The position numbers and the translations under genes are program-made. Positions 6,175 through 44,534 of a stretch of DNA of 64,000 bases are shown here, in pieces. This DNA is from the human T2T-CHM13v2.0 reference genome, Homo sapiens: NCBI RefSeq assembly GCF_009914755.1, contig NC_060928.1; one strand, given 5' to 3'. Each line of letters begins with the position of its first letter. Within the stretch, counting starts at the first letter, position 1. The notes under the pieces were generated by a model that searched no databases, was not told the DNA's origin, and was given only the letters and a program-made list of their open reading frames with translations.

Positions 6175-7206
6175 TGTTAACCTTCTGATTGTAATAAGTA
6201 ACAGGTAAAAGTGCATCATTTGTCAAACTCATGGCTAGAAGATATGGGTCACAGATAACACATTCTAAAGGCCAAGCAATCATGCAATTACCATGAGTTG
6301 ACTATTTCTTAAATTTCCTTCCTAGAAAAATAAAAATTTGACACAGTTCAATAAAAAAGAAACTAGTATGTCAAAAACAAAATAGTAAAGCAAACCTACT
6401 AGGAAACTCTAATTGGCTTCATCTTTCAGGGTCAGCTTCTTTTTGTGGCCAGGACAGGGTCCTAAACACATTCTTGGTTGTGTTTCTTATTCATTTAATT
6501 AAGTGAAAAATAAGTTCTCTTTTACACGTGTTTTCTTTTTCAGCCTCTATAGTGTGAAATAAACATGAAGCTGTCAAATAGAATAAACTGAGACAGGCTA
6601 AACTAATTTGCCACTGATGATAGTCATTATAAACAATCTGAATGCTGTTCCACCTCACTGGGATTTAAATAATCTGTCAAAGAGCTCTATATTCTAAAAT
6701 CTGCATATGAAATCAGGGAACATGAGGAAGAAATGAGAATAGTTAGTTAAATCAACAGAAATATCCTCATTCCTGACACGAAAATAGAAGAGTTTAATTT
6801 CTTTAAGAAGGGATTAATTTTTTTAAGCCCTTCTCTCTCTCATTCAAATGCCACCCCATGCAAACAATTATTGTTACTCCATTCCTTCCTCAATATTTAG
6901 GAATATTGCTCAGTGTTGTTAGAAAATTTGGTCTTTTTGGACTCTAGCCACGATGGCCAAATAGGAACAGCTCCAGTTTACAGCTCCCAGCGTGAGCGAC
7001 ACAGAAGACGAATAATTTCTGCATTTCCAACTGAGGTACCAGGTTCATCTCACTGGGTATTGTCGAAAAGGGGGTGCAGGACAGTAGGTGCAGCACACTG
7101 AGCATGAGCCCAAGCAGGGTGAGGCATCCCTCACCCGGGAAGCACAAGGGGTCAGGGAATTCCCTTTCCTAGCCAAGGAAAGGGGTGACAGACGGCACCT
7201 GGAAAA

Positions 7207-7389
7207 TCAGGTCACTCCCACCCTAACACTGCGCATTTCTGACTGTCTTAGCAAACAGCACACCAGGAGATTATATACCGCACATGGCTCAGACGGTCCT
7301 ATGTCCACGGAGCCTTGCTCACTGCTAGCACAGCAGTCTGAGATCAAACTGCAAGGTGGCAGCGAGGCTGGGAGAGGGGAGCCCGCCAT
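7207..7389 (-). pseudogene. L1 ORF0 homologue (antisense), truncated at 60 aa
   Basis: MAGSPLPASLPPCSLISDCCAS...RVGVT matches the primate L1 ORF0 N-terminus; a stop replaces the Arg of the canonical 71-aa ORF0. Confidence 0.85.
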
Positions 7390-7965
7390 TGCTGAGGCTT
7401 AAATAGATAAACAAAGCAGCCAGGAAGCTTGAACTGGGTGGATCCCACCACAGCTCAAGGAGGCCTGCCTGCCTCTGTAGACTCCACCTCTGGGGGCAGG
7501 GCATTGCCAAACAAAATGCAGCAGAAACCTCTGCAGACTTAAATGTCCCTGTCTGACAGCTTGGGAGACAGTAGTGGTTCTCCCAGCACCCAGCTGGAGA
7601 TCTGAGAATGGACAGACTGCCTCCTCAAGTGGGTCCCTGACCCCCAAGTAGCCTAACTGGGGAGGCACCCCCCAGTAGGGGCAGACTGACACCTTACACA
7701 GCCGGGTACTCCTCTGAGACAAAACTTCCAGAGGAACAATCAGGCAGCAACATTTGCTGTTCACCAATATTCGATGTTGTGCAGCCTCCTCTGCTGATAC
7801 CCAGGCAAACAGGGTCTGGAGTGGACCTCCAGCAAACTCCAACAGACCTGCAGCTGAGGGTCCTGACTGTTAGAAGGAAAATGAACAAACAGAAAGGACA
7901 TCCACACCAAAACCCCATCTGTACATCACCATCATCAAAGACCAAAGGTAGATAAAACCACAAAG

Positions 7966-8982
7966 ATGGGGAAAAAACAGAGCAGAAAAACTGAAAATTC
8001 TAAAAATCAGAGTGCCTCTCCTCCTCCAAAGGAACGCAGCTCCTCACCAGCAACAGAACAAAGCTGGACAAAGAATGACTTTGATGAGTTGAGAGAAGAA
8101 GGCTTCAGACAATCAAACTTCTCTGAGCTGAAGGTGGAAGTTCGAACCCATGGCAAAGAAGTTGAAAACCTTGAAAAAAGATTAGACAAATGGCCAACTA
8201 GAATAACCAATGCAGAGACGTCCTTAAAGGACCTGATGGAGCTGAAAACCATGGCACTGGAACTACGTGACGAATGCACAAGCCTCAGTAGCCGATTAGA
8301 TCAACTGGAAAAAAGGGTATCAGTGTTGGAAGATCAAATGAATGAAATGAAGTGAGAAGAGAAGTTTAGAGAAAAAAGAATAAAAAGAAACAAACAAAGC
8401 CTCCAAGAAATATGGGACTATGTGAAAAGACCAAATCTACGTCTGATTGGTGTACCTGAACGTGATGGGGAGAATGGAAACAACTTGGAAAACACTCTGC
8501 AGAATATTACCCCAGAGAATTTCCCCAATCTAACAAGGCAGGCCAACATTCAAATTCAGGAAATACAGAGAATGCCACAAAGATACTCCTTGAGAAGAGC
8601 AACTCCAAGACACATAATTGTCAGATTCACCAAAGTTGAAATGAAGGAAAAAATGTTAAGGGCAGCCAGAGAGAAAGGTCGGCTTACACACAAAGGGAAG
8701 CCCATCAGACTAACAGTGGATCTCTCAGCAGAAACTCTACAAGCCAGAAGAGAGTGGGGGCCAATATTCAACATTCTTAAGGAAAAGAATTTTCAATCCA
8801 GAATTTCGTATCCAGCCAAACTAAGCTTCATAAGTGAAGGAGAAATAAAATCCTTTACAGACAAGCAAATGCTGAGAGATTTTGTCGCCACCACGACTGC
8901 CCTAAAAGAGCTCCTGAAGGAAGCACTAAACATGGAAAGGAACAACTGGTACCAGCCACTGCAAAAACACGCCAAATTGTAA
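7966..8982 (+). pseudogene. L1 ORF1p (RNA-binding chaperone), 338-codon frame with a single premature stop
   Basis: MGKKQSRKTENSK...; TGA at 8353-8355; the frame continues without shift to ...LQKHAKL*. Confidence 0.95.
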
Positions 8983-9030
8983 AGACCATTGAGGCTAGGA
9001 AGAAACTGCATCAACTAACAAGCAAAATAA

Positions 9031-12872
<3,842 letters not shown>

Positions 12873-17794: not shown

Positions 17795-21615
<3,821 letters not shown>

Positions 21616-41683: not shown

Positions 41684-42228
41684 GAACATAAATATTTTTT
41701 AATAAATAACATTCCAATATAGTAGTCTAATTAGATAATATAATCTTAAAACAGATTTTATTTACTATAGAAAGAACAAAAATTTTAAAGGGAAAATTTC
41801 CATGAGAAATACAAACATCATGAAAAAACAAAAATATTTATAGAATAATATTTGAGTAAGAATAGGAAAATTATGATAAATATATAAAGGCTTCCAAAAT
41901 GTATATTTGTATTTAAAATCCCAACAGGATTAAGGAGACTTTAAGTGTTCTGAAATTCATTTGAATAGAATAAACAGGTAAGAATATTTACAAACAAAAA
42001 TTTGTAAGTTACTGAACTGTATACATGTAAGCTCTCAAAAAATGTGCTGAACCAACTACAAAATTAAGGTAGTTAAAATAATATATATACAAATAATAAA
42101 CGGCTCATATGCCTAAATTCAAATAAATAATGAGAATTAGACCCTGTGGCCCTAAAACTTAGACCCTAAAAATTAAAAGTATGATATTGTAGTCATTATA
42201 AATCAAGAGAGAGGGAAAAATTTACTTA

Positions 42229-42568
<340 letters not shown>

Positions 42569-42680
42569 AAAATGTGAAAAACAAACTAATAGAGAATTCC
42601 CTCTTTTGCCATAACTATAATAATCTCCAGATGGATCAAAAAGTTGAGTAGTTACAGCTTGTAGCATAGAAAAACTCTAA

Positions 42681-42987
42681 GTGGGTGGAAGGGGAAGGTG
42701 CTGGGTGAGGGAGTGCTGATTCTGTCTGTCCCTTCTCTTCCTCTGCTGCAGGCAGAGCCTGGTCACAGACTATGTCTTACTGCACGTGCTTGTGAAGTAG
42801 CACCTGCCCCTGGAGTACCAGCTGCTGCTCATTCCTTGTGCATTCAGTGGAAACTGTCTTCCCTGCCCAATAGCCAGGCCTCAGCACTTGCCCTGTCCCT
42901 ACCTGCAGCCCTTTGCCCCCACACACTCCTCCAGGTCTCCTCCTGACCCCCAGCATCAATTAAGTGTGACAAACAGAAAAAAGAAAA
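42681..42987 (+). pseudogene. GC-rich retroposed fragment of an unidentified transcript (apparent short intron, terminal exon and poly(A))
   Basis: Non-TE-like GC-rich insert in an AT-rich L1 relic; TSD agaaaaactctaa 42668-42680 / agaaaaactataa 42988-43000; AATTAA at 42958-42963 about 13 nt before the A-rich tail. Confidence 0.8.
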
Positions 42988-44534
42988 AGAAAAACTATAA
43001 AACCTCTAGAAGAAGAAGGAATTCCTAAGCTCAAAAGCAATGAAGAAACAAGATCAATAGCCTTACTGCATAAAAATTGGAAATCTCTCCAAATCAAAAA
43101 AAAAATTAAAAGGCATGAACTGAGAAAAAATTAGCTTTTGCAGTAAATGATTAATCTTTTTACAACTTACAGGTTCACATATACAATACGATGAACCTGA
43201 CAGCCTTATAACAAATAAACAATCCACAAAAGAAACTGCAACTGACAAACCAACATTGGGAAATGTCCTAACAGAAATTAAAGAAATGCAAATAAAACTA
43301 CAGTAAAAAAGTGCCATGTTTTTTCATGAAATTAGCAAGTGTTTTGTTGAATAATAGTCCATACTGGCAACAATGTTGTGAACCTGATCTTTTTATATAC
43401 CCCTGTTGAAAATATAAATTGGCATAAACATTTTGAAAGTAATTTAAAATATTTATCAAAGGCCTATCATTCATTCATAACCTTTTACTCAGTAATTCCA
43501 TTTTGAGAAATTTGTCTCAGAGAAATAAATATAGGAAATGCCTTATGTGCAACGATATTCATTAGAGTATTTATAACAACAAAAATTTGAAGAAAAATCT
43601 TAAATACCCAATAATAATGAAAAAGCTAAGTAAATTATGGTTATACTAACTGAATGGAATAATAAGTAGGTATTTCAAATGATGAATGAAACAGTTAAAC
43701 ATGTTATCTATGGGAAGTAAAATTATAAAAAATTTTCATTTGGTACTTAATGCATTTCTAAATGTTTGAATTTGTTATATCTTTCCTGTTATAACAAGAA
43801 AAAGGATATAAAGATATTTCCATTTTGAAAATATAGTTGAAATAATAGTTACAAAGATTGTAATAAATAAAAGATGTGCTTGCTATCCTTTCATAAAAAA
43901 AATATCTGGAATGAAACTCCTCTAAACTCTAATAGTGTAAGTGTATATTGATGAGAATGTAGATTTTTTGTGTGTTTTCCAAATTATCTTTATTGAATTC
44001 AGCAAACATTTATTGAGATCCTAAGCAAAAGGCACTGACTACAACAAAGATGTATAAGGTACTGCATGTTGCTTATTAATGTGCATGAATTATTCTTATA
44101 ATATTCTGAACAGTCATGTTCTCCCTGCAAAAGAACTCTTAGGAAAAACTGTATGATCACAAACAATCTGCTAAGAGTTTATTATTATATAAGCATTGCG
44201 GTATAAAATTGTAATATCCATTTTCAAACGTGTGAGAAAATACTACTAAGATTTAATAATTTTAATTTACAGTAACAACTTCCAAACATCCACTCAATCA
44301 AATCTGAAAAAAGAGAGACAGAAATTTATTTCTATTTCTTCAGATCCCTGAGATTTAAACACCTACCTTGATCGCAGAAATTGAAAGCGAAAATTTTTCA
44401 GTGCTGGGTACATATAGTAAATATTTTCTACCAGCCTCAAAAGTGAATTTGAACTGAACATGTCCAGGAATTTTAATAAAATATTGACCAGTTTAGCATC
44501 TGACCAGCTGAAAGGCAATTTCTTCTGTTATCTT

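What the first reader, a model, noticed from the sequence alone, without database searches (positions are those of the whole stretch)
42668..43000. Retro-insertion that appears to begin exactly at a 5' splice site: intron + last exon + poly(A)
Seen: a ~307-bp GC-rich insert splits an old L1 relic, with a 12/13 TSD (agaaaaactctaa / agaaaaactataa), a poly(A)-signal-like AATTAA and an A-rich tail. Its first 71 nt (42681-42751) read like a complete short intron: GTGGGT at the first base, G-triplets, branch-like GCTGAT (42715-42720), a pyrimidine tract and CAG. What follows reads QSLVTDYVLLHVLVK*HLPLEYQLLLIP in one frame. Established: L1 machinery retroposes cellular RNAs in trans, and processed copies normally lack introns. 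Inference: the template was an incompletely spliced RNA, possibly a splicing intermediate cleaved at the 5' splice site (intron plus 3' exon), or an intron-retaining mRNA or orphan 3' transduction truncated there by chance. The insert also supplies a portable acceptor + terminal exon + poly(A) cassette on the + strand. I could not recognise the parent gene.
Basis: partly seen in the sequence, partly recalled or inferred. Interest (0 to 1): 0.8.

Follow-up and report, generated by a model that had tools for sequence, protein, structure and literature searches.

The report
Truncated CENPT retrocopy keeping its last intron
This is a dead, roughly 300-base reverse-transcribed copy of the tail end of the centromere gene CENPT that still carries the gene's last intron and starts at or very near that intron's first base, an ordinary kind of genomic fossil with one curious detail that a single old copy cannot explain.

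Summary
Window 42681-42987 is a 307-bp GC-rich insert with a 12/13 target-site duplication, an A-rich tail and an AATTAA hexamer. It splits an old LINE-1 ORF2 relic.

The parent is CENPT on chr16, the only other match in the genome (83% identity). Its last exon encodes CENP-T residues 522-561. The insert is the parent's last intron (83 nt in the parent, 71 nt here), then the last exon and 3'UTR, ending at the parent's poly(A) site. The intron/exon boundary is exact: 42751/42752.

So this is a short, 5'-truncated, semi-processed (intron-retaining) pseudogene made by L1, which is a known kind.

"Begins exactly at the 5' splice site" cannot be settled. The first ~30 nt are G-rich and full of indels. 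A pair-HMM gives intron +1 a posterior of 0.18-0.39 and +5 a posterior of 0.26-0.71, with the rest between -6 and +18.

The most likely origin is chance truncation of an intron-retaining CENPT RNA. A splicing-intermediate template stays possible (about 0.12) but unproven.

I found no evidence that the insert works as an exon/poly(A) cassette. Interest is low to moderate.

The parts
42668..42680 (+). Upstream copy of the target-site duplication, AGAAAAACTCTAA
   Evidence: It maps to the same L1 reference bases as the downstream copy.
42681..42751 (+). Copy of the last intron of CENPT: 71 nt here, 83 nt in the parent. The G-rich 5' part is 42681-42712, with uncertain alignment. The branch-like GCTGAT is at 42715-42720, followed by a pyrimidine tract and CAG.
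   Evidence: The 3' 39 nt (42713-42751) align without gaps at 36/39 identity to L002 1771-1733. The BLAST HSP reaches 42697.
42752..42873 (+). Coding part of the CENPT last exon (CENP-T residues 522-561 plus the stop position). It is now broken by an in-frame TAG at 42798-42800 and a 2-nt deletion near 42856.
   Evidence: the parent exon equals 7qoo_T 522-561, 40/40 residues, E 2.7e-21; frames; alignment, 106/122 identical.
42874..42976 (+). CENPT 3'UTR copy, ending at the parent's poly(A) site (...AAACAG). The hexamer AATTAA at 42958-42963 corresponds to the parent's AATAAA.
   Evidence: 86/103 identical.
42977..42987 (+). Remnant of the poly(A) tail, AAAAAAGAAAA. It has no counterpart in the parent locus, where AATATTCTGC follows the cleavage site.
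42988..43000 (+). Downstream copy of the target-site duplication, AGAAAAACTATAA
42583..42667 (+). Upstream flank: old LINE-1 ORF2 relic in sense orientation
   Evidence: 42583-42671 aligns to window 11882-11971 and to 20622-20712; that reference encodes ORF2p residues 927-1068.
43001..43685 (+). Downstream flank: continuation of the same LINE-1 ORF2 relic
   Evidence: 42991-43014 aligns to 11960-11983, and 43393-43685 aligns to 12464-12761 and to 21205-21503.

Best explanation
The insert is a short, 5'-truncated, semi-processed pseudogene of CENPT. A polyadenylated CENPT transcript whose 83-nt last intron had not been removed was copied by LINE-1 target-primed reverse transcription. Priming was at a T-rich nick in an older L1 relic on chr4. 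Only the last ~316 nt of the RNA (intron + last exon + 3'UTR) ended up in the DNA, flanked by a 13-bp target-site duplication.

The copy stops at or within a few bases of the intron's 5' splice site. The most likely cause is ordinary 5' truncation, either because the reverse transcriptase fell off or because the template was already shortened. That it happened to land there is probably coincidence.

The copy has since decayed (K2P 0.153 to the parent, an in-frame stop, a frameshift, AATAAA changed to AATTAA) and has no function.

Shown: the parent, the boundaries, the retained intron, the poly(A) at the parent's cleavage site, the TSD, and the L1 relic target.
Inferred: the L1 machinery, the intron-retaining mRNA as template, and chance as the reason for the 5' end.

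The confidence given (0.75) is for the whole statement including chance truncation. That the insert is a CENPT retrocopy with a retained last intron I hold at about 0.97.
For: - Only two places in the 3.1-Gb assembly match the insert: itself and chr16 73623941-73624233 on the minus strand, 83% identity over query 17-296.
- That locus reads ...KPEDLELLMRR / 83-nt GT..AG intron / 40 codons + stop / 3'UTR with AATAAA. The 40 codons are identical to CENP-T residues 522-561, the C-terminus of a 561-residue chain.
- The intron/exon boundary is colinear without gaps: 42751 aligns to L002 1733.
- The A-tail starts right after AAACAG, where the parent sequence continues differently.
- The 12/13 TSD brackets exactly this unit. 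Both copies map to one site of the L1 ORF2 reference.
- The bottom strand at the TSD start reads TTTTTCT/ATG, a T-rich L1-endonuclease-like site (read).
- No other piece of the 3.3-kb CENPT locus is in the window: 1 HSP only.
- Literature, passages read. Semi-processed pseudogenes that retain introns are a recognised class (PMC4151081). GENCODE curated eight in human (PMC3491395). 654 short (<=300 bp) mRNA-derived pseudogenes with TSD and poly(A) were reported, with truncated templates proposed (PMC2831318). CENPT is a documented producer of stable polyadenylated intron-retaining RNA (PMC13561874, PMC12487819); I did not see which intron.
Against: - The 5' end lies close to the 5' splice site: most posterior mass is within -6..+9, and +1 is one of the two best placements. 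Under random truncation a 15-nt window has a prior chance of only a few percent (my estimate).
- I could not show that the last intron specifically is retained in CENPT RNAs.
- I could not date the insertion against other primates or see the ancestral intron sequence.
Confidence: 0.75

Rival explanations
1. The template was a splicing intermediate. The idea is a polyadenylated CENPT RNA that had passed the first catalytic step on its last intron. It would be the intron plus 3' exon, either as a lariat intermediate that the reverse transcriptase read through or after discard and debranching to a linear RNA. The cDNA would then end at intron +1 because the RNA ended there.
For: - Intron +1 is one of the two best placements of the first base (posterior 0.18-0.39 over five parameter sets).
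- The whole intron 3' of that point, the exon and the normal poly(A) site are present.
- No microhomology between the TSD end (..CTAA) and the parent bases before +1 (..GGCG). This fits a run-off end rather than a microhomology-joined truncation (read).
- From recall, not from a call: discarded lariat intermediates are exported, debranched and degraded in yeast.
Against: - The placement is not resolved. +5 scores as well or better (0.26-0.71), and 0.03-0.14 of the mass (summing the rows printed above 0.01) lies in the exon.
- The branch motif GTGCTGATTC is identical in both copies, so there is no read-through scar. This does not count against a debranched template.
- Such intermediates are short-lived and rare compared with intron-retaining RNA (established knowledge).
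- It is a single case picked post hoc.
- None of the papers listed reports a retrocopy of a splicing intermediate. I saw listings and some passages only.
Confidence: 0.12
2. Non-random truncation caused by local features at the intron start, not by splicing chemistry. Examples are a 5'-to-3' decay intermediate stalled at the G-rich, structured intron, or reverse transcription ending at a U1 snRNP-bound 5' splice site of a retained intron.
For: - The first 40 nt of the intron are G-rich and can pair with the pyrimidine tract. MFE is -26.7 kcal/mol for the parent intron and -28.2 for the insert copy, with the helix starting at +8 and +5 respectively.
- The +5 placement would fit an end just inside a bound or structured 5' splice site.
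- Terai et al. propose that short pseudogenes arise from templates truncated before reverse transcription (PMC2831318).
Against: - The parent intron folds no better than shuffles: z +0.89, and 161 of 200 shuffles fold at least as well. The insert copy is only marginal: z -2.05, 7 of 200.
- G-quadruplex-aware folding chose no quadruplex.
- There is no direct evidence for either stall.
Confidence: 0.08
3. Orphan 3' transduction. In this reading an L1 sitting inside CENPT in sense orientation read through to the CENPT poly(A) site. The copy was then truncated so severely that only transduced sequence remains.
For: It would explain efficient mobilisation in cis.
Against: - 0 HSPs to two L1 blocks of the window in the 10 kb fetched. 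These cover the CENPT 3' end and about 9 kb upstream in the sense direction, and contain only Alu matches.
- A transcript from an upstream L1 would still need the same coincidence at the 5' end.
Confidence: 0.02
4. Not a retrocopy at all: either a member of an interspersed repeat family or a DNA-level duplication of the CENPT 3' end.
For: None found.
Against: - Only two places in the genome match.
- No Rfam family covers the insert.
- An A-tail not present in the parent locus starts at the parent's cleavage site, and the unit is bracketed by a TSD.
Confidence: 0.01

Closest known systems
Semi-processed (partially spliced) pseudogenes, e.g. mouse preproinsulin I, the TMF1 insertion in CYBB, and the eight GENCODE 'partially processed' pseudogenes
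   Same: An L1-type retrocopy of a cellular mRNA that kept a parental intron, with poly(A) and TSD (PMC4151081 passages; PMC3491395 passage).
   Different: - Only ~300 bp long and holding a single intron, so it cannot be said whether the other introns had been spliced.
- Its 5' end lies at or next to the retained intron's 5' splice site.
- CENPT does not occur in the one supplement file of PMC3491395 that was held and searched.
Short (<=300 bp) mRNA-derived pseudogenes of Terai et al. 2010
   Same: Similar size, derived from the 3' end and last exon of an mRNA, a TSD of about 13-15 bp, and a poly(A) tract (PMC2831318).
   Different: - Contains intron sequence.
- Not found under CENPT, C16orf56 or a recalled accession in the 2 supplement files that could be searched. 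One further file was not searchable.
Classical processed pseudogenes made by LINE-1 in trans
   Same: Parent on another chromosome, poly(A) at the parent's 3' end, TSD, a T-rich target site, and decay by stops and frameshifts.
   Different: The defining lack of introns is not met.

Membership tests
L1-mediated processed pseudogene / retrocopy | Sequence matches the transcribed part of a parent gene located elsewhere | tested here: met
   chr16, 83% identity; CENP-T 522-561; 82.7% over 295 columns
L1-mediated processed pseudogene / retrocopy | Poly(A) tail attached at the parent's 3'-most transcribed nucleotide | tested here: met
   homology ends at ...AAACAG(AA), 13 nt behind the parent's AATAAA. 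An 11-nt A-rich run absent from the parent follows.
L1-mediated processed pseudogene / retrocopy | Flanking target-site duplication of 5-20 bp | tested here: met
   13 bp, 12/13 identical. Both copies map to one site of the L1 reference.
L1-mediated processed pseudogene / retrocopy | Lacks the parent's introns | tested here: not met
   The last intron is present at 42681-42751. It is therefore filed as semi-processed.
L1-mediated processed pseudogene / retrocopy | T-rich L1 endonuclease-type nick site on the bottom strand | tested here: inconclusive
   The bottom strand reads TTTTTCT/ATG at the TSD start. This is T-rich but not the recalled TTTT/AA consensus. The tail/TSD border is ambiguous.
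Semi-processed (partially spliced) pseudogene | Retains at least one parental intron inside a retrocopy | tested here: met
   The 3' 39 nt of the intron are 36/39 identical and ungapped, and the exon boundary is exact.
Semi-processed (partially spliced) pseudogene | Other introns removed | not testable with these tools
   The copy holds only the last intron, and no upstream CENPT sequence is in the window.
Retrocopy of a splicing intermediate (hypothetical class) | 5' end exactly at intron +1 | tested here: inconclusive
   Posterior 0.18-0.39 for +1 against 0.26-0.71 for +5. Local alignments start at L002 1816, 1808 or 1793, depending on scoring.
Retrocopy of a splicing intermediate (hypothetical class) | Scar (mismatch or deletion) at the branch adenosine if a branched template was read | tested here: not met
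   GTGCTGATTC is identical in the insert and the parent. This is not required for a debranched template.
Retrocopy of a splicing intermediate (hypothetical class) | Recurrence: further retrocopies that start at intron +1 | not tested
Interspersed repeat family | Many dispersed copies | tested here: not met
   2 places in the whole assembly.

The most novel reading that the evidence does not exclude
The insert may be a fossil of a spliceosomal first-step product: the CENPT last intron still joined to the last exon, already polyadenylated and cut at the 5' splice site. On this reading, discarded and probably debranched splicing intermediates reach the LINE-1 machinery and can be written back into the germline. 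Retrocopies that begin at intron +1 would then record failed second-step splicing.
Probability: 0.12. Interest if true: 0.7.

Novelty: new member of a known kind. Interest (0 to 1): 0.3.

Why it matters
As it stands, this adds one unannotated pseudogene fragment, a CENPT retrocopy absent from the RefSeq table supplied with the finding. It also illustrates that short retrocopies can carry introns and are missed by intron-loss-based pseudogene finders.

It would matter more if the 5' end truly marks a 5' splice-site cut. Retrocopy 5' ends could then be mined as a natural record of splicing intermediates that escaped the spliceosome. L1 trans-mobilisation would also be shown to sample uncapped RNAs. 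One ~15%-diverged case with an ambiguous alignment cannot carry that claim. It gives a concrete, cheap genome-wide test.

Tried and rejected
- Rfam scan of 42000-43600. Only Alu/SRP-type matches upstream and chance snoRNA-level hits; nothing in the insert.
- Whole-genome DNA searches with each flank and a protein search with a flank frame. These found only the window itself, plus one E 9.1 hit, so they could not name the flanking repeat.
- Pfam on 10 flank and insert frames. One sub-threshold chance match (InvH, E 0.022, 15.7 bits against a cut-off of 27) and 0 families for the other 9.
- PDB searches with two flank peptides. 0 matches. The relic is too decayed, and its L1 identity had to come from collinearity with better-preserved copies in the window.
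- A Pfam accession recalled for the L1 ORF2 C-terminus is not in the library.
- Hairpin or G-quadruplex as the cause of the 5' end. The parent intron is not more stable than shuffles and no quadruplex was chosen.
- Source L1 for a 3' transduction in 10 kb of the CENPT locus. None found. I asked for 17.6 kb and received 10 kb.
- Supplements of PMC2831318 and PMC3491395 searched for CENPT. No occurrence. One file of the former could not be searched.
- Two PDB calls failed on frame or coordinates. The first was corrected. The second, on the penultimate exon, was dropped as unnecessary.

Full report
**1. The observation**

- AGAAAAACTCTAA lies at 42668-42680 and AGAAAAACTATAA at 42988-43000, 12/13 identical.
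- Between them is a 307-bp block, 42681-42987. Its GC content is 0.51-0.62, against 0.26-0.39 on either side.
- The block starts with GTGGGT. It has GCTGAT at 42715-42720, a pyrimidine tract and CAG at 42749-42751, AATTAA at 42958-42963, and an A-rich run at 42977-42987.
- With up to one mismatch, the 13-mer occurs only at these two places in the window. Shuffles give 0.48 matches, and 11 of 100 shuffles had two or more somewhere in 64 kb.
- The informative point is that the second copy sits exactly behind the A-run.

**2. The parent**

A search of the whole assembly with 42681-42976 finds two places: the window itself, and chr16 73623941-73624233 on the minus strand, 83% identical over query 17-296.

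Read on the minus strand, that locus shows, in order:
- an exon ending ...KPEDLELLMRR;
- an 83-nt intron (GTGAGAAGG...CTGCAG, L002 1815-1733);
- 40 codons and a stop;
- a 3'UTR with AATAAA, with AAACAG 13 nt behind it.

The 40 codons are identical to residues 522-561 of human centromere protein T, the end of a 561-residue chain (7qoo_T, E 2.7e-21). The parent is therefore CENPT.

Comparing the whole 3.3-kb locus with the window gives one HSP only, L002 1499-1793 to window 42978-42697. No other part of CENPT is present.

**3. Anatomy of the copy**

| Part | Window | Parent / alignment | Source |
|---|---|---|---|
| Intron 3' half | 42713-42751 | L002 1771-1733, no gaps, 36/39 identical | |
| Coding part of last exon | 42752-42873 | 106/122 identical | |
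| 3'UTR | 42874-42976 | 86/103 identical | |
| A-rich tail | 42977-42987 | none; the parent continues AATATTCTGC | |

- The coding part carries an in-frame TAG at 42798-42800, where the parent has CGG, and a 2-nt deletion.
- The homology ends at AAACAG(AA). The A-rich run then follows.
- Overall K2P distance is 0.153 over 264 sites (24 transitions, 12 transversions).
- With recalled neutral rates of about 1.1-2.2e-9 per site per year and both copies drifting, that is roughly 35-70 million years. This is an inference, not a tool result.

**4. The target**

The flanks were too decayed for genome-wide DNA searches, Pfam or PDB searches. They do align collinearly with two better-preserved repeats in the same window.

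| Query segment | Copy near 11.8-12.8 kb | Copy near 20.5-21.5 kb |
|---|---|---|
| 42200-42247 (42204-42247 for the 20.5-kb copy) | 11811-11862 | 20555-20602 |
| 42583-42671 (42583-42672 for the 20.5-kb copy) | 11882-11971 | 20622-20712 |
| 42991-43014 | 11960-11983 | not aligned |
| 43277-43302 | not aligned | 21087-21113 |
| 43393-43685 | 12464-12761 | 21205-21503 |

- The end of the upstream flank and the start of the downstream flank overlap on reference bases 11960-11971. A target-site duplication must do exactly this.
- The reference copy at 11825-12271 encodes LINE-1 ORF2p residues 927-1068 (8uw3_A, E 1.2e-82).
- The single alignments are weak, with scores of 17-20 against shuffle maxima of 17-22. 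The collinearity is what counts.
- The bottom strand at the TSD start reads TTTTTCT/ATG, a T-rich site of the kind L1 endonuclease nicks (read; the consensus is recalled).

**5. Where the copy begins**

This is the crux. The first ~32 nt of the insert face 44 nt of the parent intron. Both stretches are G-rich with repeated GAAGG and GGTG units, and at least 12 nt of net indels separate them.

Local alignments under five scoring schemes start the homology at different places:

| Schemes | Window start | L002 start | Meaning |
|---|---|---|---|
| 1 | 42684 | 1816 | last exon base, so 42685 = intron +1 |
| 2 | 42684 | 1808 | intron +8, which puts 42681 on +5 if extended without gaps |
| 1 | 42697 | 1793 | — |
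| 1 | — | — | ran on into the flank and is not meaningful |

I then summed over all alignments with a pair-HMM. The 3' anchor was fixed at GTGCTGATTC. The prior was uniform over 55 parent start positions, from 25 exon bases upstream of the splice site to intron +30. Five parameter sets were used.
- Intron +1 gets posterior 0.18-0.39.
- Intron +5 gets 0.26-0.71.
- Exon positions -6 to -1 get about 0.03-0.14 together (sums of the rows printed above 0.01).
- The rest lies at +3 to +18.

So the copy begins at or within a few bases of the 5' splice site, but 'exactly' is not demonstrable from the modern human parent.

Under the two placements that score best in local alignment, the GT at 42681 is not the parent's GT. 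The +5 placement also turns a parental CpG (GGCGG) into GGTGG, a change my model did not favour but biology does.

**6. Mechanism**

The parts add up to target-primed reverse transcription of a polyadenylated CENPT RNA that still contained its last intron. Such copies are a recognised class.
- A review describes semi-processed pseudogenes, including a new TMF1 insertion that kept intron 7 (PMC4151081, passages).
- GENCODE curated eight partially processed pseudogenes in human (PMC3491395, passage). CENPT does not occur in the supplement file searched.
- Terai et al. reported 654 short (<=300 bp) mRNA-derived pseudogenes with TSDs and poly(A). They proposed that long mRNAs are truncated before or during copying (PMC2831318, abstract and passages).
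- CENPT itself is a documented source of long-lived polyadenylated intron-retaining RNA in human pluripotent cells (PMC13561874; PMC12487819). A retained or excluded intron event was also validated in mouse Cenpt (bioRxiv 10.1101/2022.09.06.506502). The passages I saw do not say which intron, and an 83-nt intron is unlikely to be the one probed by FISH. This only shows a general propensity.

**7. Why the copy ends where it does**

- Chance truncation. A priori this has only a few percent chance of landing in a 15-nt window (my estimate). The case was, however, picked because it looked like this, and the number of intron-bearing short retrocopies in the genome is unknown.
- A splicing-intermediate template would put the end at +1 by necessity. 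The likelihood gain is large: posterior 0.18-0.39 against about 1/N for N possible ends. But such RNAs are rare and short-lived. The branch motif shows no read-through scar. I also found no report of such a retrocopy among the papers listed, where I saw listings, starts of abstracts and a few passages only. I put this reading at about 0.12.
- A structural or protein block near the intron start is possible but unsupported. The parent intron folds no better than shuffles (z +0.89), the insert copy is only marginal (z -2.05, 7 of 200), and a quadruplex-aware fold chose no quadruplex.
- An orphan 3' transduction is disfavoured. There are no L1 matches in the 10 kb of the CENPT locus examined.

**8. 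Function**

Nothing suggests the insert acts as an acceptor/terminal-exon/poly(A) cassette.
- The hub's table lists no transcript across it.
- The hexamer has changed from AATAAA to AATTAA.
- The region is a decayed L1 relic between genes.

**9. Verdict**

The parent is CENPT. The object is a new member of a known kind: a short, semi-processed, 5'-truncated pseudogene.

The splice-site start is consistent with the data but unresolved. It is worth a genome-wide tally rather than a claim.

Noticed in passing
window 42271-42560 (TSDs about 42255-42268 and 42560-42573): An Alu on the + strand with an A-rich tail, flanked by its own direct repeat AAAATGTGAAAAA. It sits in the same L1 relic about 110 bp upstream of the CENPT insert. 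Rfam reports it as SRP-like and as mir-1268/mir-3135/mir-619-like below gathering scores. The relic pieces on either side are collinear with the L1 reference.
   Followed up: partly
window 10977-12861: A much better preserved L1 with long open ORF2 stretches of 110-179 codons. The stretch at 11825-12271 matches human ORF2p residues 927-1068 almost residue for residue. It served here as the reference for the relic.
   Followed up: partly
window 20555-21503: A second L1 ORF2 piece, collinear with the relic and with the copy at 11.8-12.8 kb.
   Followed up: partly
L002 1815-1733 (minus strand) and window 42681-42751: The short CENPT last intron is split into a G-rich 5' half and a pyrimidine-rich 3' half that can pair with each other (MFE -26.7 and -28.2 kcal/mol). 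For the parent this is no better than composition-matched shuffles.
   Followed up: yes
L007 about 6700-10000 (chr16, upstream part of the fetched CENPT locus): A dense cluster of Alu-like matches in both orientations, 20 HSPs to the window's Alu. GC drops from 0.55-0.58 to 0.46-0.52 across this part.
   Followed up: no
L002 1-1400 (minus-strand display, just behind the CENPT poly(A) site): GC-rich sequence that looks like exons of a convergent gene on the opposite strand, starting within a few hundred bases of the CENPT 3' end. Not identified or tested.
   Followed up: no
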